Part shown: one piece after another, positions 38,857 through 61,406 of the stretch
Position numbering within the stretch: the stretch's first letter is position 1
How the letters are laid out: each line of letters starts with the position of its first letter
Assembly: GCA_000004985.1 (NCBI GenBank)
Contig: GG738880.1
Source of the DNA: Naegleria gruberi
Lineage: Eukaryota
DNA: 64,000 bases
Strand: one strand, 5' to 3'
Made by a program: the position numbers and the translations under genes
The notes under the pieces: model-generated
What the model saw: only the letters and a program-made list of their open reading frames with translations
Databases searched by the model: none
Told to the model about the DNA's origin: nothing

Positions 38857-40689
38857 ATGGGAAATACAAAGTCCAACAATAAGATACCTGCCATTCTTTG
38901 TGAACCTACCTATCACATCTATTCTGATACTGGTGCTTGGGATGTGGCCACATTGAAAAAGTTGGTCATTGATGGTCGACTTGCTCCATTCTATCCACCT
39001 GTTTCTGAAGTACCACCAATTCCTACAACTAATACCAACAACAATACAATAATTACTACTACTGCCAATCATTCTCATCATCATACTAACAATAACTCAA
39101 CTACCACCACAACTTCACAAGAACAAAACCGTGGGAGAAAACGATCAACAAATTCATCAACTCCTGATCGTAAATCATCCATTCTCTCCCGATTCCATAC
39201 CATTCTTCATGTAAATAATAATAACAATGAAAATAACAATCATTCAACAGCTGTTGAACAAACTTCCTCTGCTGAACCACAAGCACCAAGACCTCTCGAT
39301 GAATTTTACGATGAGTGTCCTATCTGTATGATGTACTATCAGGGAGGAATGAACGTTGCCAAATGTTGTTCCCAACGAATTTGTTCAGAGTGTGTTATTC
39401 AAATATGTAAACAAGGACCAAAGCATGCAGAGACTAGCTCAGTTTGTCCCTTCTGTAAATCTTGTCCTTTCAAGATTGACTACAAGGGACCAAAGCCATG
39501 GTCTCAACGTTGTAGAGAATTAGAAGAAGAACAAGCTGTCATTCAATTGAAAATTAAACATCAACAAGAGGAAGACAAGCAACAGGAAGAGGAAAGAAAG
39601 AAACGTTTAGAATCTTCCAACTCTCTCAATAACTCTCAACAAGATGCTTCCATACTGAGTAATTTAACAAGAAACAACAATACTAATACCAGTTTCACAA
39701 GTACTACAACCACCACTACCACTAACACCTTGTCTAATAATAATAGCTTTTCTTCACCAACCATTTCTACTCCTTCCACCAATTTGGTCAATCCTGCTTC
39801 TGGTATTTCATTCCTGGAGACATACTTTGCCAATAGACGTATGAATGAACATCAACATCAACAACAACAACAACAAACTGAAGAAAGTTTAACCACCACT
39901 ACTAACAATTCTACCACACCTACCTCCTCTACCTATTCCACACAAAATCAAGACAATGATGATTCTTACTTTAGATATATTTTCGGAACAGACAGAGCTC
40001 CTTCATCACCAACAAGAACATTGCAACATGCTCTCATCTCTCGTCTTCAGAATCGATTCTTCATAGAGGATGATACTGCTGATGAGGATGAAGAAGAGGA
40101 TGAACACGACTATTTGGGTTACTATTTGGCAGGTAATCGTTCGCCAATCAGAAGACCTGCTGGTCCAATTTATAATAACACTAACAACAATACTAGAGTT
40201 GGTACACCAAATAGAGCTACTAATAACAATGCTGCAATGAGTTCTTCTACTGTCACTCCAACAACAAACAATATCTCTTCAACACCAGCCAATGACCACA
40301 TTGAAGGATTGCCAACCTTTTCTGATTTCATTCCAAATTCCATTGATGTCACTAACGTGTCGGCTGATGACGAAATGTTGAATGAGGCCATTCGTCTCTC
40401 ACTGTTGGAACAAGGAACCACTCACCATGAGTCTGTGATTTTGGATTTTAATATTCCTATTAATCATACAAATACTAGTAATAATATCAGTAATAATATC
40501 AGTGTAGGAATTAACACCACAACAACTCAACAATCAATTTCCATCTCACCAATCATTTCATCACCACTCTCAACTCTTCCAAATCATTCGGCAAATACAA
40601 ATCAGACAATCAGTAATAGTTCTGTCACTTTTGAAGAAAATGATGAGGAACTTCAAATGGTTCTCAGATTGAGTTTGTTGGATAAGTAA
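38857..40689 (+). CDS. GW2/DA2-like RING-type E3 ubiquitin ligase; N-myristoylation motif, two C-terminal UIMs
   Basis: 610-aa ORF beginning MGNTKSNN. The block LKKLVIDGRLAPFYPPV..CPICMMYYQGGMNVAKCCSQRICSECVIQICKQGP..CPFCKSCPFKIDYKGP is collinear with the unusual RING of plant GW2/DA2 as I recall it ([35 protein letters not shown]). The C-terminus has two UIM-like motifs (DDEMLNEAIRLSLLEQ; NDEELQMVLRLSLLDK). The middle is N/T/S/Q-rich. Confidence 0.6.
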   Translation: MGNTKSNNKIPAILCEPTYHIYSDTGAWDVATLKKLVIDGRLAPFYPPVSEVPPIPTTNTNNNTIITTTANHSHHHTNNNSTTTTTSQEQNRGRKRSTNSSTPDRKSSILSRFHTILHVNNNNNENNNHSTAVEQTSSAEPQAPRPLDEFYDECPICMMYYQGGMNVAKCCSQRICSECVIQICKQGPKHAETSSVCPFCKSCPFKIDYKGPKPWSQRCRELEEEQAVIQLKIKHQQEEDKQQEEERKKRLESSNSLNNSQQDASILSNLTRNNNTNTSFTSTTTTTTTNTLSNNNSFSSPTISTPSTNLVNPASGISFLETYFANRRMNEHQHQQQQQQTEESLTTTTNNSTTPTSSTYSTQNQDNDDSYFRYIFGTDRAPSSPTRTLQHALISRLQNRFFIEDDTADEDEEEDEHDYLGYYLAGNRSPIRRPAGPIYNNTNNNTRVGTPNRATNNNAAMSSSTVTPTTNNISSTPANDHIEGLPTFSDFIPNSIDVTNVSADDEMLNEAIRLSLLEQGTTHHESVILDFNIPINHTNTSNNISNNISVGINTTTTQQSISISPIISSPLSTLPNHSANTNQTISNSSVTFEENDEELQMVLRLSLLDK

Positions 40690-41621: not shown

Positions 41622-44111
41622 ATGACAAAAGTCACTCCTGTTACTACTACAACAACTGATAAGAGACAAAACTATGGAGCCAATGATTCAGTTTCAGATA
41701 TTTTCCAAGAAGAAGAAGAAGAAGAAAATGCTCAATTGATTCAATCAAAAACTCAACCAAAACGAACCATTAATTGTCCCCTCCGTTTATTTCTCATGAC
41801 AACATTGAGTATACTTATCATTGTCTGTGCCATAACTGTTTATTTAGCAGTATTTGTTGGCATGTATTCATCAGTGGACGAATTGACCAACAAGATGATC
41901 CAAACAGTTCAAGGACAAGTCACCAATTACATTGACAGATTTCTAGGAGAGTTGAAAATGTCAAGCAAACTAGCTGCTGGCCACTATAACAATGGACTCG
42001 TTGCCAAGAAAGATTACAGACAATATCTCTATCAAGGATTCAATAATTCAGGAGTTTTTGTTGGCTACTTTTTACAGGTGAATAATCATTCTGAGAGATT
42101 TTCCTATGTGATTATAAATGGAAATTTCTTGTATACCTATCAGGATAATGGATTTCCAGGACTGATTAGAGATCGAGTTAATATCTCAACTGCACAAGTA
42201 ATCAAGTATAATTTTACAGTTTCGTCTGCTCCTCAAAATTTGGAAACGACAGAGTTTTATACTTCAGCCATTTCAGAATCGAATAGTTTGGGAGTTGAGG
42301 GCGTTTTTGGAAAACCGTTTTATGTGGTTGGAGGAGCCATTAGTTTGCCATATGCTACCAAACTTTATTCCACAATGTATCCAGTTAAAAGCTTGATTGG
42401 AATTTGTAGAGCTACCATTCCATTGTACTTGTTGTCAGAATATTTGAGTGGTGTCAAAGTTTTTCAAAAAGGATATGTCATTTTGACAGAATTGAATAGC
42501 ACAATTGCAGTTGCTGGAAGTATCAAGACCACCACCGATGATGGGAGTAACAATTTGAGTATTTTCAATTTGACACAAAATAATGCTGGTCAACTCATGA
42601 ATGACATTTCAATCAATTTTAGAGGATTAGATAATATTCCTTCTAAATTTTCAATTTACAGTATTGATACCAAGTATATTGTATCAGTTTCTAATTACAA
42701 GTTTGATAATGTGTGGAGAATGTTTATTATTGCATACGATGAAGATGTGAGCTTGACAACTAATTTGAGTATTGGAATTTCAATTGGTGTCTCGATTCTT
42801 ATAATAATTATTGGAATGGTATATAGTTTGATATTGAGCAAAATGATTACTCGAACTGTTAACTATTTAGAGGAGCAATTAATGTTTGTGAAGGTGTTTG
42901 ATTTGGAGAAGGTTACACTTTCGTCCAGTATCTTCAAAGAAATGAATCAGATTATAGATAATTTACACACGACAGTATTGTGGTTGAAACAGGTAAAGCC
43001 ATTTATTCCAGCCACTGTGTTTTATCACATTCAGAGCCAAAATGATGAAAACCTTGCTGAAGATAATGAAAAAGCTCAAGATTCGAATAAGCAAACAATT
43101 CATGATAAGAATGGTGATTCAAAGAATATAGATGTGCGTGGCTCCTCTTCACTAGATTCCAAAACGAAAAGCTCTTCACTTTCACTCAATAAGGATGCCA
43201 ATTCATTATTTAAAATGGGATTGTCAAGGAAAACCTGTGCCATTCTTCATATCACATTCAATAAGTTTGAATTACAAACAACACATTCGGATATTTCAGT
43301 CACTCTGTCTAAGGTTTCGACCATGATTAGAAACATTGCCAATATTCATCAAGCTCACTTTCAAATCAACTCTTCTGAAGATATCATTATTGTAATCGAT
43401 CAGAAATCAAATAAGAAACATCCATCAGAAATTGCACTTGAATGTGCTCTCAAAATTACTAATATCATTCATTCCACTAACAATTTACTGAAAGAAAATG
43501 ATTTAAATGGTTTGGATTTCTTTATTGGAATTTCAACAAGTGATAATTCACATGTTGGAAATATTGGATCTAATTCGTTCAGATTCTTCTCTTTCATATC
43601 AAATTCTAGAAAGATTGCAATGAATTTGGCTATTTTGGCAAGCTCACTTGGAGTTAGAATTCTCCTCGATGAAGAGACATTCAACAATACCAAGCAGAAG
43701 TTTATTACAAAACCAGTAGATAGAATATTATTGGAAGGTTCCATTCATTCTTCACAGACAAGTAACATTGCAAATGTTTATGAATTGGTCAAGGAAAAAG
43801 CTGTTGCCCAAGATGAATGGCTTTATGAGCTCGATAATTTGAATTCGAATAAGGAACTTGAAAGTTTGAATGGTGTATTCTCGATATTTAAGGAGATTCC
43901 ACAAGAGAAAATAATTCCAGAATTGGATAGTAATTTGGCATTGATTAATTCGTACCTTGAAAAATCTCCCAATGATGTTGCTGTCAGTAATTTATTGAAC
44001 ATTTTGGAGTATTATAAGCATGTGTGTGGAGGTGATGGTTTTGGAGAAGTGCTGACTCGTATTAGAAACTATTGCAAAAAAGTGAATTATCAGATAACAA
44101 CCATGCAATAA
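41622..44111 (+). CDS. Receptor-like 2-TM membrane protein with large extracytoplasmic sensor region and cytoplasmic class-III nucleotidyl-cyclase-homology-like domain (paralog 1)
   Basis: 829-aa ORF. TM1 is ~LFLMTTLSILIIVCAITVYLAVFVGMY and TM2 is ~ISIGVSILIIIIGMVYSLIL, with a ~330-aa loop between them. The cytoplasmic segment ..IGISTSDNSHVGNIGSNSFRFFSFISNSRKIAMNLA..RILLDEETF has the G.xxGxxxxGxxGxxxxRxxxxGxxVNxAxR spacing of cyclase catalytic domains. One metal-binding Asp position appears lost, so this is tentative and possibly degenerate. It is collinear along its whole length with the gene at 51639..54202. Confidence 0.5.
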   Translation: MTKVTPVTTTTTDKRQNYGANDSVSDIFQEEEEEENAQLIQSKTQPKRTINCPLRLFLMTTLSILIIVCAITVYLAVFVGMYSSVDELTNKMIQTVQGQVTNYIDRFLGELKMSSKLAAGHYNNGLVAKKDYRQYLYQGFNNSGVFVGYFLQVNNHSERFSYVIINGNFLYTYQDNGFPGLIRDRVNISTAQVIKYNFTVSSAPQNLETTEFYTSAISESNSLGVEGVFGKPFYVVGGAISLPYATKLYSTMYPVKSLIGICRATIPLYLLSEYLSGVKVFQKGYVILTELNSTIAVAGSIKTTTDDGSNNLSIFNLTQNNAGQLMNDISINFRGLDNIPSKFSIYSIDTKYIVSVSNYKFDNVWRMFIIAYDEDVSLTTNLSIGISIGVSILIIIIGMVYSLILSKMITRTVNYLEEQLMFVKVFDLEKVTLSSSIFKEMNQIIDNLHTTVLWLKQVKPFIPATVFYHIQSQNDENLAEDNEKAQDSNKQTIHDKNGDSKNIDVRGSSSLDSKTKSSSLSLNKDANSLFKMGLSRKTCAILHITFNKFELQTTHSDISVTLSKVSTMIRNIANIHQAHFQINSSEDIIIVIDQKSNKKHPSEIALECALKITNIIHSTNNLLKENDLNGLDFFIGISTSDNSHVGNIGSNSFRFFSFISNSRKIAMNLAILASSLGVRILLDEETFNNTKQKFITKPVDRILLEGSIHSSQTSNIANVYELVKEKAVAQDEWLYELDNLNSNKELESLNGVFSIFKEIPQEKIIPELDSNLALINSYLEKSPNDVAVSNLLNILEYYKHVCGGDGFGEVLTRIRNYCKKVNYQITTMQ

Positions 44112-44223
44112 ATATTTACTTATTACTCCCTGGATTGATGATGAAATAAAAACAGGCACATGCCACTACAATACAAGATTGGAAAAGATGGTCAAACAAA
44201 AGAATAATGCTGTTGAAAATCAT

Positions 44224-46090
44224 TTAATTTACAGTTTGATATAATGGTTCTGATTCCTTTGTCTCAGTAGTGGCAACACCTCTAATCAATCTGGATAATC
44301 TTGATCTGCTTACTGCCATCACGCAGAAGAGAGAACATGTTAATAACAAGACACCCAAAAGAATTGCCAACAAGATCCAAAAGATTGTTGTCAAACTTCT
44401 TTGCTCATTGTAATTGTCCCTAATGCAAATATCAGCTTCATAATTCTTGCATTCCCTGCACCAATTTACAGGAATGGCATCTCTTTCACAAATCGATTTA
44501 AAGCTAGTGAATGTGCAATTAAAGTCGGTGTCCTTTCCTGGTTGACATCCCTTTCCACCCAAAGATTTCAAAGTATATTCAGCGAATCTGTTATCACTAT
44601 ATCCTCTATTGTAAACAATCTTGATGTAAAAATCGTTAATGGTTGGTTTTTGTCCTTGGGGAACTGAATCACTTAGGTGCAATTCAACTAAAATTTGAGA
44701 TCCATATGGAGGATTTTTTTGAAGCTCAACATAATCATCTGACAACTTTAAGGCAGCCATGAGTGAGAGAATACTCACATCGTGAGCACTGTAATGAATA
44801 TACTTGTATGGTATTGTCTTACTGGCTCCCAGATCAGCTCCATAATTATTTGGTGGCTTTGGGGTTGATAATCCAGTCAATTTATCAATCATCTTGTTCA
44901 TTTCGACAATCATGTTTTGAACAAGTGGTCCACCTCCAAGTTTACCTTGAACTTTTCTATTGAATACCATAAATGTTGCGACGTCTCCCAATTCTTGGAT
45001 CATATCCCAAATCTTGACAAGTTCTTGCAATTTCAATTGCTTGTGGGAGTATTGAACATTTAAAAGATCATAGACCATATAAAAGTTGGCAAAATCAATA
45101 GTCTTCCAAGCAGGATACTTGAATCCAGCTTCACTCCTCAATGCTCTAAAGTATTCATCAGCAAATTTTCTATCGGAAAGTAATTTGTAGAAAGGAATTT
45201 GCTTTTGATTTTCATATGGACTGATGAATGAATTGATCATGTTCATAACATGATTGCCTGATCCTTCCTTGAGACTATTATCAAACGGAATTTCAGTAAC
45301 ATTGGAAATGAAAGCCAAGGTTGGCTTGTACTTGTCAAGAATCTTGAAAAATTCTGAACTTTGTTGATAATTTTCATTATTCAAATCAATAGTTGGACAC
45401 TTTCCATAAGCACTCATCCAAATTTCATTGACATTTTCCTTAGTATTAATTGGAATTGGTTGCATTTGATTTGGAAGAGCTCTCGCTTGTCCAGTAATTG
45501 AAATATCAGCAACTGGTCCATTTCCAGCAGGGAACATTGCTTGTGAAATACTAAAAACTGAAAAGAGAGTTCTATCATAATCGGTAGCATAAAATCTAAA
45601 ATCTCTTGGATTCCAATGAGCTGTCGTTTTCACATCACTATTTTCTGGATAAATTAAATCGGCAATGACATTTGGATTTGGTGCTATTTTTCAATATCAA
45701 TATGTAATGATAATTGATGATTAATAATAATCATGCAAACAAACCTCCAGTCTCATTAATAACTCTCGATAAATATCTTGCATTAAAATGTTGTCCAACA
45801 ATATTACATTGTTGAAGACCCAATCCAGTGAGTTGTCCCTCACCAAATTCAATAGGACCCGATGCATCAAATCCTGCTGTATACGAATACTTGGCCAAAT
45901 CTGTTTGCCAGTCCCACGGATCTGTCGGAACTTGATAAATAGTCACTGGAGATCGATCACAATGTCTCGACAAGACTTGTACCTGAACAATTTTACCCTC
46001 AGCGACCATCATCGTCATACTAAGGGTAGATGCCAGCAAGAGCAGCACAATAAAGGAAAATAAATTTCCCCTCATTTTGAGTTGTTGCAT
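44224..46090 (-). CDS. Histidine acid phosphatase (lysosomal/prostatic acid phosphatase-like) with signal peptide and C-terminal TM anchor; 2 exons (45745..46090, 44224..45683)
   Basis: Exon 1 has the ATG at 46090 after an A-run, the signal peptide MQQLKMRGNLFSFIVLLLLASTLS and the catalytic RHCDRSP (RHGxRxP). It ends ..VINETGGLF, then donor GTTTGT. The 61-nt intron (45684..45744) ends ..AAAAATAG. The phase-1 join gives ..APNPNVIADLIYPENSDVKTTAHWNPRDF... The second catalytic motif is YSAHDVSILSLM. The C-terminus is hydrophobic (IFWILLAILLGVLLLTCSLFCVMAV). Confidence 0.8.
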
Positions 46091-46649
46091 TTTTTCAAAA
46101 AGGTCTAATAGCTTACTCAATGAAATTATAGTACTACCTTAATAGTGGAATTCAGTAAGGAACCAATTTAAGAACAGATTTGTTCTCAATTAATAATGAT
46201 TCTATAAAATGAATTTATTCTTATGTTTAAGGAAATAAGGTCAATCGTTAGATTTTAGGTGAAAGAAATGAAATCTAAAGAAAAAACAAGATTTTTAAGG
46301 TTTTAAAATCATTGGAGAAAGATGTCTAGCCAGCAGGAATTTCCAGACTTCTTTTTCAAGGTAGTTCAACTCCAGCTATTTTGATATGAGCTGATGAAAT
46401 ATCTTCTATCTCAATTAATTTAACAGATATTGAAATAATAAATTGTGTAGAGAGAGAATATATCACTGGGAATCTATCTTCTTCTAAAGAATGTTTCTCA
46501 TCCCTTATTCATTGAATATAATAGTAAAGTATCACAAATATTAAATGCAAAATGTCCAATTGTGAAAATTACAGGAAAAGATAATTCTCTGGTAGAGAAT
46601 GGATGAATGACATGCTGTTCGTGATGTTTTAGTGAGAAGTCAATATCCA

Positions 46650-48690
46650 CATCATGTGAAAAACAATAAAAACATGAAAATATAAGATATCCACGATTTT
46701 CACAAATTATGCTACAAGACTCGAAATTATACATTCAACAACATAATAAACATTATGAATTGTTGTTTTATTGTTGTTTGATTTGTAATTGGGCTATGAA
46801 TCAACTCTGTAGCATGAAATATCGGAACTTGGTAAATTGACAACATGATGAAAATCTGATAATAAATACCTCTCCTACCTACTATTGACCATTCCGAACA
46901 ATAATACATTGACACTTTTCCAACTTGTCCAGTAGATCCAGCAGTGATGATGAATTTAGTGAAAATTTTGACATTTCACCAAAATTACATTGCTAAAAAT
47001 TAATTTCCACAAATACTATTATTATATTGATGGAAAACAATAATGATGATGGTTGGTGAATGATCCGATGATGGAACACCAACTTGGGATTTTCCAGCAT
47101 GAAAAATAAATTCCAATTTCATGATGATAATGAACCAATAAAAATTACTATTATTATTACTATATAGATCATGTTGAGATGATGATGTGAAAGTTTGGTG
47201 GTTTCATGATGTAAAACCACTCCGAAAATCATGATGTCCTCCTTGAGTAGAAGAATGTTGAATATTTTTTTATGAAGTTTTTGTGAGAATGGCGTAGCAG
47301 TTGTATTATTGGTGAAGTTATGGTCTATGTCTTTCAAAATTAAGTCCATCATGATGATAATCCACTAATAAAATTACTACTATTCAGATCATGTTGAGGG
47401 GTTCGATTTATCTCTTGTTTTACTGTAACAAGTATTGCGCCCAAAATTGTTAAGGTACTTCCCGTGTGCTAAACTCAAGCTCCAAAAAAATGTTTGAAAA
47501 TAAGCCACTAACAAACATGCAAGATATTAACTCTGGAAAAGATTATTTAGCGAGTAAAAGAAGGAAGGAATGATGTTATCGGAGAAGGAATTTATCAGTG
47601 ATGATATTGAAATTAATGATAACACAAAAGCTACATCTTCAAAAACACTTTTCAATATTTCATCACCTTCGTTTAGGAAGAGATTGGAACTGGGAGAGGA
47701 TGTGCCATTCTCCAATAATTTTAATAATAATGTAAATAATTCAAACAATATTGAAAAACAACAAACGGAAACAAGTTCATCATCAACTACAACAACACCG
47801 AGACCATCATTCATCAAAGCACCTTCATTACCTTCATTATCTTTTCCTATTAAGAAAAGTTCATCAGTTTCTGATGATGTTAAAGAGATTGAATCTAAAT
47901 TGAATGCTAATTGCAAGAATGGTGTGGAAAGGGCAATGTTATACATGTTGGCAAACCGATTGAATGTCAAGTTGTTGATTGGAGTTCTATTTGTGTTATC
48001 TTTTTTAAATAGCCTTAAAACATTAAGTTTTAATCAGAATATTTTGAGTATTGTCCTATTTCTTGTTCAATTATATACTAACTATCATAGGAAGAATATT
48101 GATATGGCCATGTCCTATGAGGAGACTTTTAAAAGATTGGATGGGCAGGAAATGCAGAGAATGGTTGTTTCCTTGGTTCTCTACACAACCAGAATACTAT
48201 TCCTTCCCGAACATAACATGATGTTTATTCCAGTTCTTTTCCTTTGGTTTGCTGGAGCTAACAAGTTGTACATTTACTCAACTTTTCATGGGCTATTCCC
48301 AACATTTTACACAAGCTTTCTCTACATTATGTGTGCTTGCTACCATTCGTACCATGAGTATATTTTGAATGGATACTCTGCTCGATTCATTGGAATCATT
48401 GAGCAATATACAGTTATGACTGGCTGTGTTTGGATGTTCTCCTATTATTTTATTAATGTGACTGGTTATTTGAAACACAAGGTAGATAAATTGCAAGACA
48501 CTAGAAAAAGGTTGGAATCAGCATTAGACGCTCGTAGTCGTTTCATGGCCCATATTTCACACGAGTTTAGATGTCCAATAATGTCAAGTATAGGGTGCTT
48601 GGAGTTGTTAAAAGAAACTCCATTGAATGAAAAACAAAATGATTTGGTTGACACAATTGTTTCTTCAAATAGTGTTCTTTTGCTTTGATG
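46650..48690. repeat. Segmental duplication unit A (HK promoter region + 5' CDS); paralogous to 48741..50184
   Basis: Direct alignment by eye shows 46650.. matching 48741.. at a roughly constant offset of 2091 nt. After a ~145-bp insertion unique to copy B (48958..49105) the offset becomes 2235 nt. The identity is ~98-99%, with 2-nt and 6-nt indels in the CDS. Confidence 0.8.
47490..48688 (+). CDS. Hybrid histidine kinase, copy A, 5' part (sensor/TM region + HisKA), truncated by scaffold gap
   Basis: ORF 47570..48688 has hydrophobic helices, then ..RSRFMAHISHEFRCPIMSSIGCLELLKETPLNEKQNDLVDTIVSSNSVLL. This is a HisKA H-box with the phospho-accepting His. The sequence runs into the N-gap at 48691. 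The upstream ATG at 47490 (MFENKPLTNMQD..) is put out of frame by a 2-nt indel relative to copy B. Confidence 0.6.
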
Positions 48691-48740
48691 NNNNNNNNNN
48701 NNNNNNNNNNNNNNNNNNNNNNNNNNNNNNNNNNNNNNNN
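48691..48740. other. Assembly gap (50 N) between duplication units A and B
   Basis: Run of N. Confidence 1.
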
Positions 48741-50184
48741 CATCATGTGAAAACAATAAAAACATGAAAATATAAGATATCCACGATTTTCACAAATTTT
48801 GTTACAAGACTCGAAATTATACATTCAACAACATAATAAACATTATGAATTGTTGTTTTATTGTTGTTTGATTTGTAATTGGGCTATGAATCAACTCTGG
48901 TAGCATCAAATATCGGAACTTGGTAAATTGACAACATGATGAAAATCTGATAATAAATATGATGTTTATTATCTATTTAAATAGTAGTACTAAAAGACAT
49001 GATTCAAGTTGGTGAAGTACATGTTGAGTTATGGTCCATGTACTTTTTAAAAATTCACATGTACCTATCCCTATCATAACTTGACCAAAATTGATAAGAG
49101 AAAGTTCTCCTACCTACTATTGACCATTCCGAACAATAATACATTGACACTTTTCCAACTTGTCCAGTAGATCCAGCAGTGATGATGAATTTAGTGAAAA
49201 TTTTGACATTTCACCAAAATTACATTGCTAAAAATTAATTTCCACAAATACTATTATTATATTGATGGAAAACAATAATGATGATGGTTGGTGAATGATC
49301 CGATGATGGAACACCAACTTGGGATTTTCCAGCATGAAAAATAAATTCCAATTTCATGATGATAATGAACCAATAAAAATTACTATTATTATTACTATAT
49401 AGATCATGTTGAGATGATGATGTGAAAGTTTGGTGGTTTCATGATGTAAAACCACTCCGAAAATCATGATGTCCTCCTTGAGTAGAAGAATGTTGAATAT
49501 TTTTTTATGAAGTTTTTGTGAGAATGGCGTAGCAGTTGTATTATTGGTGAAGTTATGGTCTATGTCTTTCAAAATTAAGTCCATCATGATGATAATCCAC
49601 TAATAAAATTACTACTATTCAGATCATGTTGAGGGGTTCGATTTATCTCTTGTTTTACTGTAACAAGTATTGCGCCCAAAATTGTTAAGGTACTTCCCGT
49701 GTGCTAAACTCAAGCTCCAAAAAAATGTTTGAAAATAAGCCACTAACAAACATGCAAGATATTAACTCTGGAAAAGATTATTTAGCGAGTAAGAAGGAAG
49801 GAATGATGTTATCGGAGAAGGAATTTATCAGTGATGATATTGAAATTAATGATAACACAAAAGCTACTTCTTCAAAAACACTTTTCAATATTTCATCACC
49901 TTCGTTTAGGAAGAGATTGGAACTGGGAGAGGATGTACATGTGCCATTCTCCAATAATTTTAATAATAATGTAAATAATTCAAACAATATTGAAAAACAA
50001 CAAACGGAAACAAGTTCATCATCAACTACAACAACACCGAGACCATCATTCATCAAAGCACCATCATTACCTTCATTATCTTTTCCTATTAAGAAAAGTT
50101 CATCAGTTTCTGATGATGTTAAAGAGATTGAATCCAAATTGAATGCTAATTGCAAGAATGGTGTGGAAAGGGCAATGTTATACA
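48741..50184. repeat. Segmental duplication unit B (bounded by N-gaps on both sides)
   Basis: See unit A. The identical small ORFs 47119..47352 and 49354..49587 are part of this duplication. Confidence 0.8.
49725..50184 (+). CDS. Hybrid histidine kinase, copy B, N-terminal fragment, truncated by scaffold gap
   Basis: This fragment is ~98-99% identical to 47490..47950. The ATG at 49725 follows an A7 run and is in frame through MMLSEKEF... It has a 6-nt insertion (..EDVHVPFS..) relative to copy A and ends at the N-gap at 50185. Confidence 0.55.
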
Positions 50185-50569
50185 NNNNNNNNNNNNNNNN
50201 NNNNNNNNNNNNNNNNNNNNNNNNNNNNNNNNNNNNNNNNNNNNNNNNNNNNNNNNNNNNNNNNNNNNNNNNNNNNNNNNNNNNNNNNNNNNNNNNNNNN
50301 NNNNNNNNNNNNNNNNNNNNNNNNNNNNNNNNNNNNNNNNNNNNNNNNNNNNNNNNNNNNNNNNNNNNNNNNNNNNNNNNNNNNNNNNNNNNNNNNNNNN
50401 NNNNNNNNNNNNNNNNNNNNNNNNNNNNNNNNNNNNNNNNNNNNNNNNNNNNNNNNNNNNNNNNNNNNNNNNNNNNNNNNNNNNNNNNNNNNNNNNNNNN
50501 NNNNNNNNNNNNNNNNNNNNNNNNNNNNNNNNNNNNNNNNNNNNNNNNNNNNNNNNNNNNNNNNNNNNN
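50185..50569. other. Assembly gap (385 N) inside HK copy B
   Basis: Run of N. Confidence 1.
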
Positions 50570-51492
50570 ATGGCAAGTGTCAAGACCTGTCACATTGATG
50601 AAAAAAATGAATAGAGAAGATGTTCTTCTAATGTTGCATGATAAACCGAATGAAAATGCAAATAGCTTGTTTGAACTATTGAAAATTAGAATGATGACAA
50701 GCAAAACCTCTAAAATTTCAAATCAATTTACAAAAGCAATTCGTATTGATAATTGTAAACATGTGGAAACGCTTGGAACGCCAAATAAGTATGGAAAGCC
50801 TGCACGAGGACTCAACAACAAATTCTTCTTCAATATTCCGATGGATATTACTATTTCATACAGGCACGAAACAATTTATGTTTGCGACTACAAAAATTAC
50901 AAAATTCAAACATTTGATTTGGCTACCAAACAATTTATCACTTCAATTTCGACAATTCCGACGTGCTTTATCTACATTCAAGTGGACGATCAATTTGATC
51001 AATTATTTGGATTAGGATTTGATCGTTCCTTATATGTGGGAAAATTTGAGAAACCAAGTAAGGGAAGAGGTGGATTAAGTTTTGCAAGTTTGGAACGATT
51101 GAAAATGTCAGTAATGGAAGAATGTGGTCAATTTTCAAAGATTTGTTTGGATAGAGAAATGGGGAGATTATACTTTATGGAAAATTCAAGGCAATTCAGA
51201 ATTGGAGTATTGAGAACGATGGATTTGAGTATTGTAAATTTGATGCAAGTTGATTTTGATGAACAAGATCCAAGTGATGGGGACAAAATATTGTATTTGG
51301 ATGGAAGAGGCAATTTATGTATTCTTTCGTTCCCTCTTGTTAAAAGCATTCCCTTGTCAATTGTGAATTCAAGGAAACAAGCTCACTTTGGCCAATTTGA
51401 AACATTATTGAGTTTACAGAAAAGATTTCCAATGTGTTCAAGATAGTAACTGAGAAATCATCTGGGAATATATTAATTTCTATACCAATTCC
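50570..51492. repeat. Duplicated block carrying the NHL-propeller gene (copy 1); paralogous to 62455..63382
   Basis: tggcaagtgtcaagacctgtca[c/a]attgatgaaaaaaatgaatagagaagatg.. is shared between the two copies. Identity is ~97% apart from the inverted segment. Confidence 0.8.
50607..51446 (+). CDS. NHL-repeat-like beta-propeller protein (copy 1, intact)
   Basis: 279-aa ORF with the ATG after A7. It has repeated blade-like motifs (ETIYVCDYKNYKIQTFDL, RLYFMENSRQFRIGVLRTMDL, ILYLDGRGNLCILSFPL). It lies immediately 3' of the histidine-kinase block in both duplicated copies. Confidence 0.5.
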   Translation: MNREDVLLMLHDKPNENANSLFELLKIRMMTSKTSKISNQFTKAIRIDNCKHVETLGTPNKYGKPARGLNNKFFFNIPMDITISYRHETIYVCDYKNYKIQTFDLATKQFITSISTIPTCFIYIQVDDQFDQLFGLGFDRSLYVGKFEKPSKGRGGLSFASLERLKMSVMEECGQFSKICLDREMGRLYFMENSRQFRIGVLRTMDLSIVNLMQVDFDEQDPSDGDKILYLDGRGNLCILSFPLVKSIPLSIVNSRKQAHFGQFETLLSLQKRFPMCSR

Positions 51493-51638
51493 TTTAACAT
51501 CAACTCCTATTACCATTCAAAAAGGTCATCATCAAACATGGATCTTTCATTCTGCTTCTGGAATGGAAATTAATGAAATTGAAGGTGAATTATTAATTGT
51601 AGAAAAGAAATCCTTCACTATTAAAATATTCAAATAAT

Positions 51639-54202
51639 TTACATGTAATCTACAACAGTTGTATGAGGTGGATAAACTTCCTGAACTTGATTGTTGACAG
51701 TTGAATAATATTGCTTGAACAATTCAAATCTGGTGTTCTTTCCAGAAGATTCCAATATGTGAGCAAAATACCCAATGCTCTTAATCAATTTTCTGGCAGG
51801 ATACGATTTGATGTATTCATCATTTTGAACAACAGCTGTCAAATTAGCTTCATAATCTCTGAGCATGTTAATAATTTCATCATTATTCAACCCTTCAAAG
51901 TTCTTGTCATAGAAGAAATATTTTCCAAACTCTGAGAATTTCTGATTTGCCTTTTGCTGTTCCAACTCGTACATCCATTCTTGAAATTTTGTTACAATTT
52001 TTGTAAACCTTTCAACTTACCATCACCTTCAATAGTATTTTCCTTTTCAACTTCATAAACAACCGAAACTTTTCCTTCTTGTGAATTTTCAACAACTTCC
52101 ATCAACTTGTCAACTGGTCTGGATACAAACTTTTTCAGAGTTGACTCATCCATTGTTCCCTCATCAGCCAACACATCACATCTCAAGTCGTCTGCCAAAA
52201 AAGCAAGTTTTTCAGCATTGATAGGAACTGAACCAACAACAGAAAATGTTCTAAATGAACTAGTTCCCAAATTTCCTGCATAGCACTTTCCACTACTGAC
52301 TCCAATGGCACATCTGATATGGGTTTTCGATGTTTCATTGATTGTTACTAATAATTTTCTCAATTTCAAAGCAGCTTCCAAAGCCAAAACATTTGACGAT
52401 TTTCGACCATTTCCTTCCACAGACGAAACATAAATCTGATAATCATCCACAGTAATAACTTGAAAATCACCTTGTATAGATTTAGAAACAGCACTCAACC
52501 CAGAAACAATCTTTGAAAATATGTGTCCAATATCAGCAACATTCAAATCTGTTGAAAAATCAATTAATTTGATTCTTACAACTGCTCCTTGTTTACAATT
52601 CAGACCAATTTTGAAAAGAGAATTTCCCACTTCTTGAACTTTGGATGCCATTGAGGAAGTTCTTGAACTATTGTTACTAAAATGACGACTTCCATGAGAT
52701 TCCAAATCTATTGAGGCAGCATCACTATTCGAAACTGGGTGATTCTTATGTTTCTTTGATTTGGTGTTGGCTTGGGATTCATCTGTTTTTTTGGTATTTT
52801 CTTCTTTCATATTTCTCAATTGTAAAAATACACTTTCTGGAATAAATGTCTTAATTTCGTTTAACCATACTGTCATTTCATATAAATAAAGGTAAATCAA
52901 ATCGACTTCTTTAAACTTGCTTGCAGTAATATTCACCTGATCTAGTTCCATAGTTTTGATTTTCATAAATTCTCTTTCTAAAATTGTAAATGGATTTGTG
53001 ACAATGTGTCCAATAGTGATAGACATGATTACACCAACAATGATAATCAAAATGGTAATACCAACAGATACTCCAGTTGTAATATTTGTTACCATTTCAA
53101 CTTCTTGCTTATCAACCACAATGAAAACATTCCATTCCAAGTTGACCAATGTGAAATTTGACTTTACAATGAAAAAACCATCAAAGTCAATAAAAATTGG
53201 TGTGTTAGTCCACCCCTTATAATTCTGATAAACCCTGTTCAATAAACTTCCAGAACCCTTATCAATCAAGTCAAATAACGAAACTCTAGAACTTCCATCC
53301 AAAGCAGTAGTATTGATATTTCCACCAATGACAAGATTATTGGTTTCTGCCACAATCACATAACCACTAGTGAGTACTTGTACTGTTTTCAAAAAGCTTT
53401 CAATAATTCTCAATGAAATATTCGTTTTTGTAATGCCAACTACCTTTTTAATTCCATTGCTATAATAGGTAGGATCATATAATTTGGCACAATAGTAAGT
53501 TGTATAACTTGGATTGCCAGGAATTGCATAAGGAATGCCGAATACACCATCTAATCCCAAAGAGGAATAAAAACCAAAAGTAGTTTTCCAATAACTTTGA
53601 GCATTCACTTCATAATTAGGAGATGCCTTGACCAGTGACTTGGCAGTTGTGTTAGGAGTTGAAGTATCCAATGAAATTGCATATAACATAAATTCAGTCG
53701 TTGGTGTATGATACCAAACAACAATTTCATTGGGTGGAGCTCCGTAAACATTGACACTGTCAAGACTGTCATTAAAAAATAAACCAATTCCGTATGGCTT
53801 GAAAGTGTTGTAATATTTGTAAAGATAGGCAAGCGATGGTTGACGAGGAACAAGTCCTAAATTGTAATCCTCAGCCATTGACTCAGTTGCTGAAATATAA
53901 GGTTTCAGTTGACCGTTCATATAGTTCAGTACTGAACCACTGATGGTATGCATCAATTGAGTTGATAAGGAACTCAGGGCTTCTCGAGATCCTATGAAAG
54001 AAGATAACCAAATTAAAATTGAACAGCAAACTAATAGAGAAGTGATTAGAATAATGATAAATGTTCTAACCGAAATGATTCCACCACATGTTGTTGGTTT
54101 GATTGGAGCTATTTTGGTTTTCTCCTCGGTTTCGTCTTCGTTGAGGAGAGGATTTTGTTCTTTGAGACTGTCTAGGGATGCTGTGAATGGTTGTATTTTC
54201 AT
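51639..54202 (-). CDS. Receptor-like 2-TM membrane protein with cyclase-homology-like cytoplasmic domain (paralog 2); 2 exons (52021..54202, 51639..51979)
   Basis: 736-aa ORF plus a 111-aa ORF joined by a 41-nt intron (51980..52020). The donor is GTAAGT and the acceptor is ..TTTCAAG, at phase 1. The junction ..TIEGDG-E-WMYELEQQKAN.. aligns with the contiguous ..VAQDEWLYELDNLNSN.. of paralog 1. The cytoplasmic region is ..VVRIKLIDFSTDL..ITVDDYQIYV..IRCAIGVSSGKCYAGNLGTSSFRTFSVVGSVPINAEKLAFLADDL. Both putative metal-binding Asp positions appear retained. Confidence 0.55.
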
Positions 54203-55452: not shown

Positions 55453-58400
55453 NNNNNNNNNNNNNNNNNNNNNNNNNNNNNNNNNNNNNNNNNNNNNNNN
55501 NNNNNNNNNNNNNNNNNNNNNNNNNNNNNNNNNNNNNNNNNNNNNNNNNNNNNNNNNNNNNNNNNNNNNNNNNNNNNNNNNNNNNNNNNNNNNNNNNNNN
55601 NNNNNNNNNNNNNNNNNNNNNNNNNNNNNNNNNNNNNNNNNNNNNNNNNNNNNNNNNNNNNNNNNNNNNNNNNNNNNNNNNNNNNNNNNNNNNNNNNNNN
55701 NNNNNNNNNNNNNNNNNNNNNNNNNNNNNNNNNNNNNNNNNNNNNNNNNNNNNNNNNNNNNNNNNNNNNNNNNNNNNNNNNNNNNNNNNNNNNNNNNNNN
55801 NNNNNNNNNNNNNNNNNNNNNNNNNNNNNNNNNNNNNNNNNNNNNNNNNNNNNNNNNNNNNNNNNNNNNNNNNNNNNNNNNNNNNNNNNNNNNNNNNNNN
55901 NNNNNNNNNNNNNNNNNNNNNNNNNNNNNNNNNNNNNNNNNNNNNNNNNNNNNNNNNNNNNNNNNNNNNNNNNNNNNNNNNNNNNNNNNNNNNNNNNNNN
56001 NNNNNNNNNNNNNNNNNNNNNNNNNNNNNNNNNNNNNNNNNNNNNNNNNNNNNNNNNNNNNNNNNNNNNNNNNNNNNNNNNNNNNNNNNNNNNNNNNNNN
56101 NNNNNNNNNNNNNNNNNNNNNNNNNNNNNNNNNNNNNNNNNNNNNNNNNNNNNNNNNNNNNNNNNNNNNNNNNNNNNNNNNNNNNNNNNNNNNNNNNNNN
56201 NNNNNNNNNNNNNNNNNNNNNNNNNNNNNNNNNNNNNNNNNNNNNNNNNNNNNNNNNNNNNNNNNNNNNNNNNNNNNNNNNNNNNNNNNNNNNNNNNNNN
56301 NNNNNNNNNNNNNNNNNNNNNNNNNNNNNNNNNNNNNNNNNNNNNNNNNNNNNNNNNNNNNNNNNNNNNNNNNNNNNNNNNNNNNNNNNNNNNNNNNNNN
56401 NNNNNNNNNNNNNNNNNNNNNNNNNNNNNNNNNNNNNNNNNNNNNNNNNNNNNNNNNNNNNNNNNNNNNNNNNNNNNNNNNNNNNNNNNNNNNNNNNNNN
56501 NNNNNNNNNNNNNNNNNNNNNNNNNNNNNNNNNNNNNNNNNNNNNNNNNNNNNNNNNNNNNNNNNNNNNNNNNNNNNNNNNNNNNNNNNNNNNNNNNNNN
56601 NNNNNNNNNNNNNNNNNNNNNNNNNNNNNNNNNNNNNNNNNNNNNNNNNNNNNNNNNNNNNNNNNNNNNNNNNNNNNNNNNNNNNNNNNNNNNNNNNNNN
56701 NNNNNNNNNNNNNNNNNNNNNNNNNNNNNNNNNNNNNNNNNNNNNNNNNNNNNNNNNNNNNNNNNNNNNNNNNNNNNNNNNNNNNNNNNNNNNNNNNNNN
56801 NNNNNNNNNNNNNNNNNNNNNNNNNNNNNNNNNNNNNNNNNNNNNNNNNNNNNNNNNNNNNNNNNNNNNNNNNNNNNNNNNNNNNNNNNNNNNNNNNNNN
56901 NNNNNNNNNNNNNNNNNNNNNNNNNNNNNNNNNNNNNNNNNNNNNNNNNNNNNNNNNNNNNNNNNNNNNNNNNNNNNNNNNNNNNNNNNNNNNNNNNNNN
57001 NNNNNNNNNNNNNNNNNNNNNNNNNNNNNNNNNNNNNNNNNNNNNNNNNNNNNNNNNNNNNNNNNNNNNNNNNNNNNNNNNNNNNNNNNNNNNNNNNNNN
57101 NNNNNNNNNNNNNNNNNNNNNNNNNNNNNNNNNNNNNNNNNNNNNNNNNNNNNNNNNNNNNNNNNNNNNNNNNNNNNNNNNNNNNNNNNNNNNNNNNNNN
57201 NNNNNNNNNNNNNNNNNNNNNNNNNNNNNNNNNNNNNNNNNNNNNNNNNNNNNNNNNNNNNNNNNNNNNNNNNNNNNNNNNNNNNNNNNNNNNNNNNNNN
57301 NNNNNNNNNNNNNNNNNNNNNNNNNNNNNNNNNNNNNNNNNNNNNNNNNNNNNNNNNNNNNNNNNNNNNNNNNNNNNNNNNNNNNNNNNNNNNNNNNNNN
57401 NNNNNNNNNNNNNNNNNNNNNNNNNNNNNNNNNNNNNNNNNNNNNNNNNNNNNNNNNNNNNNNNNNNNNNNNNNNNNNNNNNNNNNNNNNNNNNNNNNNN
57501 NNNNNNNNNNNNNNNNNNNNNNNNNNNNNNNNNNNNNNNNNNNNNNNNNNNNNNNNNNNNNNNNNNNNNNNNNNNNNNNNNNNNNNNNNNNNNNNNNNNN
57601 NNNNNNNNNNNNNNNNNNNNNNNNNNNNNNNNNNNNNNNNNNNNNNNNNNNNNNNNNNNNNNNNNNNNNNNNNNNNNNNNNNNNNNNNNNNNNNNNNNNN
57701 NNNNNNNNNNNNNNNNNNNNNNNNNNNNNNNNNNNNNNNNNNNNNNNNNNNNNNNNNNNNNNNNNNNNNNNNNNNNNNNNNNNNNNNNNNNNNNNNNNNN
57801 NNNNNNNNNNNNNNNNNNNNNNNNNNNNNNNNNNNNNNNNNNNNNNNNNNNNNNNNNNNNNNNNNNNNNNNNNNNNNNNNNNNNNNNNNNNNNNNNNNNN
57901 NNNNNNNNNNNNNNNNNNNNNNNNNNNNNNNNNNNNNNNNNNNNNNNNNNNNNNNNNNNNNNNNNNNNNNNNNNNNNNNNNNNNNNNNNNNNNNNNNNNN
58001 NNNNNNNNNNNNNNNNNNNNNNNNNNNNNNNNNNNNNNNNNNNNNNNNNNNNNNNNNNNNNNNNNNNNNNNNNNNNNNNNNNNNNNNNNNNNNNNNNNNN
58101 NNNNNNNNNNNNNNNNNNNNNNNNNNNNNNNNNNNNNNNNNNNNNNNNNNNNNNNNNNNNNNNNNNNNNNNNNNNNNNNNNNNNNNNNNNNNNNNNNNNN
58201 NNNNNNNNNNNNNNNNNNNNNNNNNNNNNNNNNNNNNNNNNNNNNNNNNNNNNNNNNNNNNNNNNNNNNNNNNNNNNNNNNNNNNNNNNNNNNNNNNNNN
58301 NNNNNNNNNNNNNNNNNNNNNNNNNNNNNNNNNNNNNNNNNNNNNNNNNNNNNNNNNNNNNNNNNNNNNNNNNNNNNNNNNNNNNNNNNNNNNNNNNNNN

Positions 58401-61356: not shown

Positions 61357-61406
61357 NNNNNNNNNNNNNNNNNNNNNNNNNNNNNNNNNNNNNNNNNNNN
61401 NNNNNN
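61357..61406. other. Assembly gap (50 N) between the (GGGTTT)n array and the HK HATPase exon
   Basis: Run of N. Confidence 1.

What the first reader, a model, noticed from the sequence alone, without database searches (positions are those of the whole stretch)
41622..54202. Inverted pair of receptor-like cyclase-homology paralogs bracketing the duplicated HK/NHL region
Genes 41622..44111 (+) and 51639..54202 (-) are collinear over their whole length. Both have an N-terminal TM, a ~330-aa extracytoplasmic region, a second TM and a membrane-proximal helix (..VWLNEIKTFIPESVF / TVLWLKQVKPFIPATVF). Both also have a cytoplasmic domain with cyclase-catalytic-domain spacing and the shared tail motif DEW[LM]YEL. 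Paralog 2 needs a 41-nt GTAAGT..AG intron to recover the tail, and alignment to paralog 1 corroborates that splice. Paralog 1 seems to have lost one metal-binding Asp (possible pseudo-cyclase) while paralog 2 keeps both. Their head-to-head, ~8-kb-apart arrangement flanks exactly the unstable duplicated block, which suggests an inverted-repeat-mediated rearrangement hotspot.
Basis: partly seen in the sequence, partly recalled or inferred. Interest (0 to 1): 0.55.

Follow-up and report, generated by a model that had tools for sequence, protein, structure and literature searches.

The report
Two diverged receptor pseudo-cyclase genes in Naegleria
The two genes are real but anciently diverged members of a large amoeba (Heterolobosea) family of membrane sensor proteins whose cyclase-like output domain lacks nearly all the residues needed to make cAMP or cGMP. 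They share no DNA similarity, so they cannot act as an inverted repeat, and the "unstable duplicated block" between them is most likely an assembly artefact.

Summary
The window is Naegleria gruberi. Gene 1 (41622-44111, +, 829 aa) and gene 2 (51639-54202, -, 840 aa once the 41-nt intron at 51980-52020 is removed) are collinear full-length paralogs: 28% identity, E 2e-101.

Both have the same layout: TM, a roughly 300-aa dCache-like ectodomain, TM, a helical HAMP-like/transducer segment, a disordered linker, a class III cyclase-homology domain (CHD), an invariant DEW[LM]YEL motif and a four-helix tail. CHD homology is solid at profile level (sAC C2 E 6.5e-10, CyaB 5.5e-6) and at fold level (TM 0.7-0.8). 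Pfam PF00211 stays below its gathering score.

Both paralogs are catalytically degenerate. The first metal Asp is T in gene 1 and K in gene 2, the substrate Lys is I/V, the transition-state Asn is K/I and the Arg is N/K. So are 115 of 117 family representatives, and every named relative is heterolobosean.

The rearrangement idea fails. The genes share no nucleotide similarity, fall in different subclades that predate the Naegleria species split, and are convergent rather than head-to-head. The 98% "duplicated block" is an entire small contig lying between two N gaps. The result is an ordinary locus in a mildly interesting pseudo-cyclase receptor family.

The parts
41622..44111 (+). Paralog 1: intronless gene of 829 aa plus stop, identical to the N. 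gruberi 'predicted protein' P0001
   Evidence: ORF; 100% identity and 100% coverage to P0001
41784..41867 (+). Paralog 1 TM1 (residues ~55-82)
   Evidence: Kyte-Doolittle window maximum 2.73; helix in the AF2 model
41868..42755 (+). Paralog 1 extracytoplasmic dCache-like sensor domain (residues ~83-378)
   Evidence: AF2 alpha/beta double-module with pLDDT 70-87. Foldseek hits to dCache ectodomains 3li8 and 9hvj at E ~1e-7. Sub-threshold Pfam dCache_1 hits in 5 of 11 homologues. Carries 7 of the protein's 11 NxS/T sequons.
42756..42842 (+). Paralog 1 TM2 (residues ~379-407)
   Evidence: Hydropathy maximum 2.65
42843..43031 (+). Paralog 1 HAMP-like helices plus transducer-like motif TVLWLKQVKPFIPATVF (residues 408-470)
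   Evidence: Helices 373-423, 439-458 and 464-484 in the model. hhalign to the equivalent segment of bacterial dCache-cyclase P0014. The Pfam HAMP model gives no hit.
43032..43199 (+). Paralog 1 low-complexity, predicted-disordered linker (residues 471-526)
   Evidence: pLDDT below 50 over residues 454-531; length-variable and unconserved in alignment A1
43200..43802 (+). Paralog 1 degenerate class III cyclase-homology domain (residues 527-727). Its residues at the six canonical positions (metal Asp 1, substrate Lys, metal Asp 2, specificity Asp/Thr, Asn, Arg) are T, I, E, S, K, N.
   Evidence: Profile hits to solved cyclases; Foldseek TM 0.70-0.81; residue mapping
43812..44108 (+). Paralog 1 DEWLYEL motif (43812-43832) and four-helix C-terminal tail (residues 731-829)
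   Evidence: Invariant E, W, Y, E, L columns; helices 733-827
52021..54202 (-). Paralog 2 exon 1 (codons 1-727 plus 1 nt). The public model NAEGRDRAFT_80465 starts 108 codons downstream and lacks TM1.
   Evidence: the N-terminus and TM1 align with homologues
51980..52020 (-). Paralog 2 41-nt intron, GTAAGT..AG
   Evidence: Sequence. Removing it gives an 840-aa protein collinear with paralog 1 and restores the invariant DEWMYEL. The same splice is present in P0004.
51639..51979 (-). Paralog 2 exon 2: tail helices plus stop
53090..53989 (-). Paralog 2 dCache-like ectodomain (residues 72-371), flanked by TM1 (53990-54070) and TM2 (53003-53089)
   Evidence: Hydropathy; Pfam dCache_1 sub-threshold at E 0.012; homology to paralog 1
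52037..52624 (-). Paralog 2 degenerate cyclase-homology domain (residues 527-722). Its residues at the six canonical positions (metal Asp 1, substrate Lys, metal Asp 2, specificity Asp/Thr, Asn, Arg) are K, V, D, S, I, K.
   Evidence: PF00211 at 21.5 bits against a 21.9 cut-off; residue mapping
44224..46120 (-). Intervening gene, not part of the family: histidine acid phosphatase with a 61-nt intron at 45684-45744
   Evidence: Pfam His_Phos_2 at 3e-14 and 6.6e-6 on the two exons; intron read from the sequence
46650..47945 (.). Copy 1 of the ~98% direct repeat (upstream region and 5' part of a histidine-kinase gene)
   Evidence: BLASTN
48741..50184 (.). Copy 2: the whole contig between N runs 48691-48740 and 50185-50569. 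Probably a redundant or allelic contig, i.e. an assembly artefact.
   Evidence: It aligns end to end with copy 1 except for a 118-nt insertion, and its limits coincide with the gap edges

Best explanation
These are two anciently diverged members of a large family, found so far only in Heterolobosea, of two-pass membrane receptors. The family descends from a bacterial-type dCache-(HAMP-like)-class IIIb cyclase.

Shown:
- An extracytoplasmic double-Cache-like fold lies between two TM helices.
- It is followed by a helical HAMP-like segment ending in the W-L-x-E-I-K-x-F-x-P-E-x-V-F motif, which corresponds to the cyclase transducer helix of real cyclases.
- Then come a 40-100 aa disordered linker, a cyclase-homology domain, the invariant DEW[LM]YEL motif and a ~100-aa helical tail.
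- The cyclase-homology domain keeps the fold and the class IIIb G-N-x-G hairpin with a following Arg/Lys. It has lost the first metal Asp, the substrate Lys and the transition-state Asn and Arg in both paralogs and in nearly the whole family.

Inferred:
- The proteins most likely bind a small extracellular ligand.
- They most likely signal through a non-catalytic dimeric CHD-plus-tail module acting as a regulatory, scaffolding or nucleotide-binding pseudo-enzyme, possibly by pairing with catalytically competent cyclases. They probably do not make cAMP or cGMP themselves.
- Their convergent neighbourhood in N. gruberi is either a relic of an old local duplication or chance. It has no mechanistic link to the sequence between them, and the 'duplication' there is most likely a scaffolding artefact.
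For: - Organism and gene identity.
- Full-length collinearity, E 2e-101.
- Family profile against solved cyclases: sAC C2 6.5e-10, CyaB 5.5e-6, bPAC/OaPAC ~1e-5, RhGC 5e-5.
- AF2 model with the CHD at pLDDT 70-90. Foldseek to Rv1625c, Cya2, CyaB, CyaC and RhGC at E 1e-8 to 6e-10 with target TM 0.70-0.81, plus dCache ectodomain hits.
- hhalign at 98% probability over 404 columns (TM2 to tail) to P0014. P0014 is a bona fide dCache_1 + PF00211 (79 bits) protein on a prokaryote-type contig.
- Catalytic-site mapping is concordant in the MAFFT, sAC and CyaB alignments and with the model's secondary structure.
- 115 of 117 family representatives keep at most 2 of the 6 canonical residues, and the first metal Asp is present in 1 of 117.
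- Exhaustive search: 128 proteins at E<=1e-30. Every one that carries an organism name is Naegleria, Willaertia or Pharyngomonas.
- No DNA similarity between the paralogs. They fall in separate subclades. The loci of the three closest N. lovaniensis relatives have no paralog within 10 kb.
- The repeat limits coincide with the gap edges.
Against: - Loss of activity is inferred from residues only. The second acidic position is kept (D or E in 61 of 117), often as a D-E/D-D/E-D pair, and a basic residue follows the hairpin in 115 of 117, so unusual chemistry or nucleotide binding is not excluded.
- Pfam does not recognise dCache_1, HAMP or PF00211 at curated thresholds in these two proteins. The domain calls therefore rest on profile and fold evidence and on a moderate-confidence model (mean pLDDT 66, pTM 0.39, 13-sequence alignment).
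- The NJ tree has no support values.
- The artefact reading of the repeat cannot be proven without reads.
Confidence: 0.75

Rival explanations
1. Paralog 2 is an active receptor cyclase and paralog 1 a pseudo-cyclase. The two genes act as an inverted repeat that drives rearrangement and duplication of the region between them.
For: The two genes are in inverted orientation ~7.5 kb apart. A ~98% repeat lies between them. Paralog 2 scores just under the PF00211 cut-off.
Against: There is no nucleotide similarity to support homologous recombination. The duplication predates the Naegleria species split. Paralog 2 lacks the first metal Asp, Lys, Asn and Arg. The repeat is direct, not inverted, and is bounded exactly by assembly gaps. 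A phosphatase gene lies between paralog 1 and the repeat.
Confidence: 0.03
2. The two neighbouring paralogs form an obligate heterodimer with one composite active site, like mammalian C1/C2, sGC alpha/beta or the fungal NeoR/RGC pairs that are also encoded as inverted neighbours.
For: Class III cyclases act as dimers. Fungal heterodimeric RGC/NeoR pairs arose by duplication and reverse reintegration, and one partner is inactive alone (PMC10622942). The pair here is adjacent and inverted.
Against: A composite site needs both metal Asp residues from one chain and Lys, Asp/Thr, Asn and Arg from the other. Paralog 1 offers T/E and I/S/K/N; paralog 2 offers K/D and V/S/I/K. Neither combination is complete. 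The closest N. lovaniensis relatives are not paired.
Confidence: 0.05
3. The domain is still an enzyme with non-canonical chemistry. Examples would be metal binding through the conserved D-E/D-D pair at the beta2-beta3 turn, or a different nucleotide substrate or product.
For: Strong family-wide conservation of the G-N-x-G hairpin, a following Arg/Lys (115 of 117), an acidic residue at the second metal position (61 of 117) and the LFKxGL and DEWxYEL motifs indicates purifying selection on the domain.
Against: Conservation is equally expected for a structural or dimerisation role. G-N-x-G is inherited from class IIIb cyclases such as CyaB and P0014. No single canonical catalytic position other than the second acidic one is kept.
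Confidence: 0.15

Closest known systems
Bacterial dCache_1-linked class IIIb adenylyl cyclases (example found here: P0014, 697 aa, on a metagenomic prokaryote-type contig)
   Same: Same order of parts: TM, dCache, TM, a ~70-aa helical HAMP-like segment ending in ...F/Y-x-P-[DE]-x-[LV]..., CHD with a V-G-N-[FL]-G hairpin, and a helical tail. hhalign gives 98% probability over 404 columns.
   Different: P0014 keeps every catalytic residue (FSD, K..GD, T, N, R) and scores 79 bits on PF00211. The Naegleria proteins have lost five of the six, carry a 40-100 aa disordered insert between the transducer helix and strand beta1, and have the invariant LFKxGL and DEWxYEL motifs.
C2 domain of mammalian soluble adenylyl cyclase (ADCY10), PDB 4clf and others
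   Same: Best sequence match among solved structures (E 6.5e-10). Like the family, sAC C2 has no Asp at the first metal position (FVNLMF).
   Different: sAC C2 keeps the Asn and Arg (VNLAARMM) and is fused to a metal-binding C1 partner. The Naegleria domain has neither residue and no fused partner.
Fungal heterodimeric rhodopsin-guanylyl cyclases (NeoR/RGC), PMC10622942
   Same: Receptor-linked CHD paralogs encoded as inverted neighbours. One partner's cyclase is inactive on its own, and one member (CcNeoR4) lacks the metal- and base-binding residues and a canonical transducer element.
   Different: The sensor is a rhodopsin, not dCache. The partner subunit there is fully competent, whereas here both neighbours are degenerate. 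The lineages are unrelated.
Receptor-type adenylyl cyclases of protists (Dictyostelium ACG, trypanosomatid receptor ACs). This comparison is from my own knowledge and was not tested here.
   Same: An extracellular sensor domain, a membrane anchor and a cytosolic class III CHD in a single polypeptide.
   Different: Those are active enzymes with different sensor domains.

Membership tests
Class III nucleotidyl cyclase catalytic domain (Pfam PF00211, Guanylate_cyc) | Single-sequence match at or above the Pfam gathering score (21.9 bits) | tested here: not met
   Paralog 1 gives no hit. Paralog 2 gives 18.6 bits as the full protein and 21.5 bits as the domain alone. Only 3 of 11 homologues give sub-threshold hits.
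Class III nucleotidyl cyclase catalytic domain (Pfam PF00211, Guanylate_cyc) | Homology to solved class III cyclase domains at profile level | tested here: met
   Family profile against PDB: ADCY10 6.5e-10, CyaB 5.5e-6, OaPAC 1.2e-5, RhGC 4.6e-5, Cya2 4.6e-4
Class III nucleotidyl cyclase catalytic domain (Pfam PF00211, Guanylate_cyc) | CHD fold | tested here: met
   Foldseek hits to Rv1625c, Cya2, CyaB, CyaC and RhGC at E 6e-10 to 1e-7, target TM 0.70-0.81 and rmsd 3-5 A over ~200 columns. The model's CHD pLDDT is 70-90.
Class III nucleotidyl cyclase catalytic domain (Pfam PF00211, Guanylate_cyc) | Two metal-binding Asp residues (end of beta1; beta2-beta3 turn) | tested here: not met
   The first is T in paralog 1 and K in paralog 2, and Asp in 1 of 117 family representatives. 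The second is E in paralog 1 and D in paralog 2.
Class III nucleotidyl cyclase catalytic domain (Pfam PF00211, Guanylate_cyc) | Substrate-specifying Lys (or Glu) four residues before the second Asp, and Asp/Thr (or Cys) before the hairpin Gly | tested here: not met
   The Lys position is I in paralog 1 and V in paralog 2. The Asp/Thr position is S in both.
Class III nucleotidyl cyclase catalytic domain (Pfam PF00211, Guanylate_cyc) | Transition-state Asn and Arg in the alpha4 motif N-x-A-x-R | tested here: not met
   Asn is replaced by K (paralog 1) and I (paralog 2); Arg by N and K. In the family, Asn is kept in 13 of 117 and Arg in 6 of 117.
Class III nucleotidyl cyclase catalytic domain (Pfam PF00211, Guanylate_cyc) | Cyclase activity | not testable with these tools
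   Needs an enzyme assay
dCache_1 extracellular sensor (PF02743) | Pfam match at gathering score (45 bits) | tested here: not met
   Best score is 20.7 bits in a homologue. Paralog 2's ectodomain gives 15.6 bits and paralog 1's gives none.
dCache_1 extracellular sensor (PF02743) | Double PDC/Cache fold between two TM helices | tested here: met
   Long N-terminal helix plus two alpha/beta modules in the model. Foldseek hits to 3li8/3li9 (TMt 0.61, E 1e-7), the 9hvj dCache chemoreceptor and MCP models. Flanking hydrophobic segments.
HAMP domain (PF00672) | Pfam match / two amphipathic helices with a connector directly after TM2 | tested here: inconclusive
   No Pfam HAMP hit even at E<=10, and the model's pLDDT is below 50 at residues 418-442. 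Position, length and helices fit, and the segment aligns with the equivalent segment of P0014.
Inverted repeat able to mediate homologous rearrangement | Extended nucleotide identity between the two arms | tested here: not met
   megablast finds nothing. blastn with words of 7 or 11 finds only a 53-nt match at 73.6% (E 0.002).
Recent local (segmental) gene duplication | The paralogs are each other's closest relatives | tested here: not met
   Paralog 1 is closer to N. lovaniensis P0002/P0003 (36-37% identity). Paralog 2 is closer to N. gruberi P0006 (47%) and to N. lovaniensis, N. fowleri and Willaertia proteins (40%) than to paralog 1 (28%). They fall in separate NJ subclades.

The most novel reading that the evidence does not exclude
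Heterolobosean amoebae carry a large, previously uncharacterised clade of eukaryotic dCache receptors. At least 117 clusters at 50% identity were examined, and many are annotated only as 'predicted protein'. Their cyclase-homology domain appears to have been converted, once and early, into a conserved non-catalytic or non-canonically catalytic output module marked by LFKxGL, G-N-x-G-...-R/K and DEWxYEL. If so, part of Naegleria's famous 'cyclase' expansion would be pseudo-enzymes that regulate or scaffold signalling, and the convergent pair here could be co-acting partners.
Probability: 0.3. Interest if true: 0.5.

Novelty: new variant of a known kind. Interest (0 to 1): 0.3.

Why it matters
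- For the locus: it removes a false lead. There is no inverted-repeat hotspot and probably no real duplication.
- For annotation: it corrects a public gene model. NAEGRDRAFT_80465 lacks its first 108 codons, including TM1.
- For biology: Naegleria is cited for having ~80-108 cyclases (PMC9928731). If a whole dCache-linked branch of that expansion is catalytically dead, cyclase counts overstate cAMP/cGMP-producing capacity.
- The family would also be a tractable example of a receptor pseudo-enzyme, and of Cache-type extracellular sensing in a eukaryote.

Tried and rejected
- Dictyostelid origin, suggested by the AT-rich, Asn-rich look of the sequence: rejected, because there are exact matches to N. 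gruberi proteins.
- GGDEF-like reading of the V-D-E-Y turn: rejected. All sequence and fold hits are to class III cyclases, and the beta1 Asp that GGDEF also needs is absent.
- Word-indexed homologue search with the family profile: returned only 5 proteins. The exhaustive profile search was needed instead.
- Pfam scans of isolated HAMP-like, ectodomain and CHD segments: nothing at curated thresholds.
- Synteny with N. lovaniensis: tblastx of the L001 and L002 loci against the window found only the family genes themselves, plus one distant phosphatase match (L002 22107-22310 to window 6950-7153). L003 returned no hits in that script, but its file may not yet have been in /data when it ran, so that comparison is unverified.
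- Exact-sequence look-up of P0001 to retrieve the public gene table: not on record.
- Foldseek against afdb50: the library was unavailable.
A bona fide bacterial dCache-cyclase (P0014), sAC and CyaB served as references instead.

Full report
**Identity of the window and of the two genes**

The 829-aa ORF at 41622-44111 (+) is 100% identical over its full length to an N. gruberi 'predicted protein' (P0001). The minus-strand gene matches NAEGRDRAFT_80465 (P0004). The window is therefore Naegleria gruberi (Heterolobosea), about 34% G+C, and contains five N runs.

**Check of the observation**

- BLASTP of the two products gives 29% identity over 736 residues (E 2e-94).
- Removing the proposed 41-nt intron (GTAAGT...AG, window 51980-52020; sequence) gives an 840-aa product. 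The alignment then extends to the C-terminus: 28% identity over 855 columns, E 2e-101.
- The splice restores DEWMYEL. The E, W, Y, E and L of this motif are invariant in an 11-sequence alignment of homologues from N. gruberi, N. lovaniensis, N. fowleri and Willaertia magna.
- The same splice is present in the public model P0004. That model, however, starts at an internal Met and lacks the first 108 residues, including TM1.
- A second short intron in the window (61 nt, 45684-45744, in the phosphatase gene) shows that very short introns are normal here.
- Each protein has exactly two strongly hydrophobic segments enclosing about 300 residues that carry most of the NxS/T sequons.

**Domain architecture**

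Pfam alone is nearly silent. Paralog 1 gives nothing, and paralog 2 gives PF00211 at 18.6 bits (21.5 bits for the isolated domain) against a cut-off of 21.9.

A profile of the family is unambiguous. Against all PDB sequences, its cytoplasmic domain hits only class III cyclases: ADCY10 6.5e-10, CyaB 5.5e-6, OaPAC about 1e-5, rhodopsin-GCs 5e-5 and Cya2 5e-4.

An AlphaFold2 model of paralog 1 was built from a 13-sequence alignment (mean pLDDT 66; the two globular domains are mostly at 70-90).

- By Foldseek, residues ~530-727 superpose on Rv1625c, Cya2, CyaB, CyaC and RhGC with target TM-scores of 0.70-0.81 (E 6e-10 to 1e-7).
- The ectodomain matches double-Cache sensor domains (3li8/3li9, 9hvj, chemoreceptor models). 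Five of 11 homologues also give sub-threshold dCache_1 hits.

The most informative relative is P0014, a 697-aa protein on a prokaryote-type contig with compact, overlapping, intronless genes.

- It carries dCache_1 (76 bits) and PF00211 (79 bits).
- hhalign matches the family profile to it with 98% probability over 404 columns, from the end of the sensor through TM2, the helical linker, the CHD and the C-terminal helical tail.

The architecture is therefore TM, dCache-like sensor, TM, HAMP-like helices, transducer-like motif (W-L-x-E-I-K-x-F-x-P-E-x-V-F), a disordered 40-100 aa linker (pLDDT below 50), CHD, DEW[LM]YEL and a four-helix tail. The HAMP call is positional only, because the Pfam HAMP model gives no hit.

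**Catalytic residues**

I mapped the six canonical class III positions using three sources, and checked them against the model's strand and helix boundaries:

- a MAFFT alignment of 117 family CHDs plus P0014;
- the HMMER alignment to sAC C2;
- the HMMER alignment to CyaB.

The sources agree:

| Position | Canonical residue | Paralog 1 | Paralog 2 |
|---|---|---|---|
| First metal site (FSD in P0014) | Asp | T | K |
| Substrate-specifying | Lys | I | V |
| Second metal site | Asp | E | D |
| Specificity | Asp/Thr | S | S |
| Transition state | Asn | K | I |
| Transition state | Arg | N | K |

That column is N, G or D across the family.
- Across the 117 representatives, the first metal Asp occurs once, and 115 keep at most two of the six residues.
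- What is conserved instead is the LFKxGL motif before beta1, the G-N-x-G hairpin (also present in CyaB and P0014, so inherited from class IIIb), a following Arg/Lys (115 of 117), and DEWxYEL.
- Neither paralog could supply either half of a composite heterodimeric site.

**Family size and distribution**

The exhaustive HMMER search of 1.84 billion representatives found 7541 proteins at E<=1e-3, 1422 at E<=1e-10 and 128 at E<=1e-30. Every hit for which a source gives an organism is Naegleria, Willaertia or Pharyngomonas. Two JGI metagenome proteins carry the label 'ankyrin repeat protein/class 3 adenylate cyclase'.

UniProt labels several members automatically as 'Guanylate cyclase domain-containing protein'; others are plain 'predicted protein'. 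The Naegleria pangenome paper counts at least 81 cyclases in Naegleria (PMC9928731). I found no paper noting that this branch is catalytically degenerate, but my literature search was limited.

**Age of the duplication and the hotspot idea**

- megablast finds nothing between the two genes. blastn with words of 7 or 11 finds one collinear 53-nt match at 73.6% (E 0.002), located in the W-L-x-x-[IV]-K-x-F-I-P motif.
- Paralog 1 is closer to N. lovaniensis P0002/P0003 (36-37% identity). Paralog 2 is closer to N. gruberi P0006 (47%) and to N. lovaniensis, N. fowleri and Willaertia proteins (about 40%) than the two are to each other (28%).
- In an NJ tree of 51 full-length members they fall in different subclades (no support values were computed).
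- The loci of the three closest N. lovaniensis relatives contain no second family member, no histidine kinase and no histidine phosphatase within 10 kb. tblastx of L001 and L002 found no flanking synteny.

**The 'duplicated block'**

- Self-BLASTN shows a direct repeat, 46650-47945 against 48741-50184, at about 98% identity.
- Copy 2 is exactly the whole contig between the N runs 48691-48740 and 50185-50569. It aligns end to end with copy 1 apart from a 118-nt insertion.
- The histidine-kinase ORF of copy 1 (HisKA, 2e-10) is cut at its H-box by the first gap. No ATPase domain is assembled afterwards.
- Repeat limits that coincide with contig ends on both sides are what a redundant or allelic contig inserted during scaffolding produces. 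A genuine, very recent tandem duplication cannot be excluded without reads. I put the artefact reading at about 0.7.
- A histidine acid phosphatase gene (44224-46120, -) lies between paralog 1 and the repeat, so the paralogs do not bracket the repeat 'exactly'.

**Mechanism**

Shown: the sensor fold, the topology, the CHD fold, the loss of canonical catalytic residues, and the family-wide conservation of alternative motifs.

Inferred:

- Ligand binding happens at the dCache domain.
- The signal passes through TM2 and the helical segment to a dimeric CHD-plus-tail output that is non-catalytic.
- The long disordered linker between the transducer-like helix and beta1 is absent from P0014. It argues against the rigid coiled-coil coupling used by real cyclases.

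Alternatives are a heterodimer of the two paralogs (no complete site can be assembled) and non-canonical catalysis using the conserved D-E/D-D pair (not excluded). The fungal NeoR/RGC system is a useful analogue: inverted neighbouring paralogs with one inactive partner (PMC10622942). There, however, the other partner is fully competent.

**Verdict**

The locus itself is ordinary: two old paralogs that happen to be neighbours in a poorly assembled stretch. The residual interest lies in the family, a large heterolobosean clade of dCache receptor pseudo-cyclases.

Noticed in passing
window 53879-54202 (-): The public gene model NAEGRDRAFT_80465 (P0004, 732 aa) starts at an internal Met. It omits the first 108 codons, including the N-terminal TM helix, although these are conserved in homologues.
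   Followed up: yes
window 48691-48740, 50185-50569, 55453-60125, 61357-61406, 63383-63432: There are five N runs (assembly gaps), one of them 4673 nt long. The right-hand third of the window is poorly assembled. The long ORFs listed across these runs are artefacts of translating N.
   Followed up: partly
window 47570-48688 (+) and 49701-50184 (+): This is the N-terminal part of a membrane histidine kinase (HisKA, 2e-10), present twice because of the repeated contig. It is cut at the H-box by a gap, and no HATPase_c domain is assembled downstream. The 291-aa ORF after the second gap (50571-51443) has no Pfam match, so the 'NHL' label was not confirmed.
   Followed up: partly
window 44224-46120 (-), intron 45684-45744: A histidine acid phosphatase gene (His_Phos_2) is split by a 61-nt GTTTGT..AG intron and has a C-terminal TM segment. 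It shows that very short introns are typical in this genome.
   Followed up: partly
window 38857-40689 (+): A 610-aa protein rich in Asn/Thr/Ser low-complexity sequence gives a weak RING-finger hit (zf-RING_2, E 6e-4, below the cut-off). It lies ~0.9 kb upstream of paralog 1.
   Followed up: no
window 6950-7153 (-) vs L002 22107-22310: This was the only flanking tblastx match between the N. lovaniensis P0002 locus and the window. It is to a dual-specificity phosphatase gene ~35 kb from paralog 1, which may be a remnant of synteny.
   Followed up: no
L003 14482-20963 (N. lovaniensis): A reverse-transcriptase/RNase H gene and a DDE_Tnp_1_7 (piggyBac-type) transposase gene lie just downstream of the paralog-1-like gene P0003.
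   Followed up: no
family alignment, paralog 1 residues 527-534 and 646-654: The family has invariant LFKxGL immediately before strand beta1 and a basic residue one position after the site of the canonical phosphate-binding Arg. These family-specific motifs have no assigned role.
   Followed up: partly
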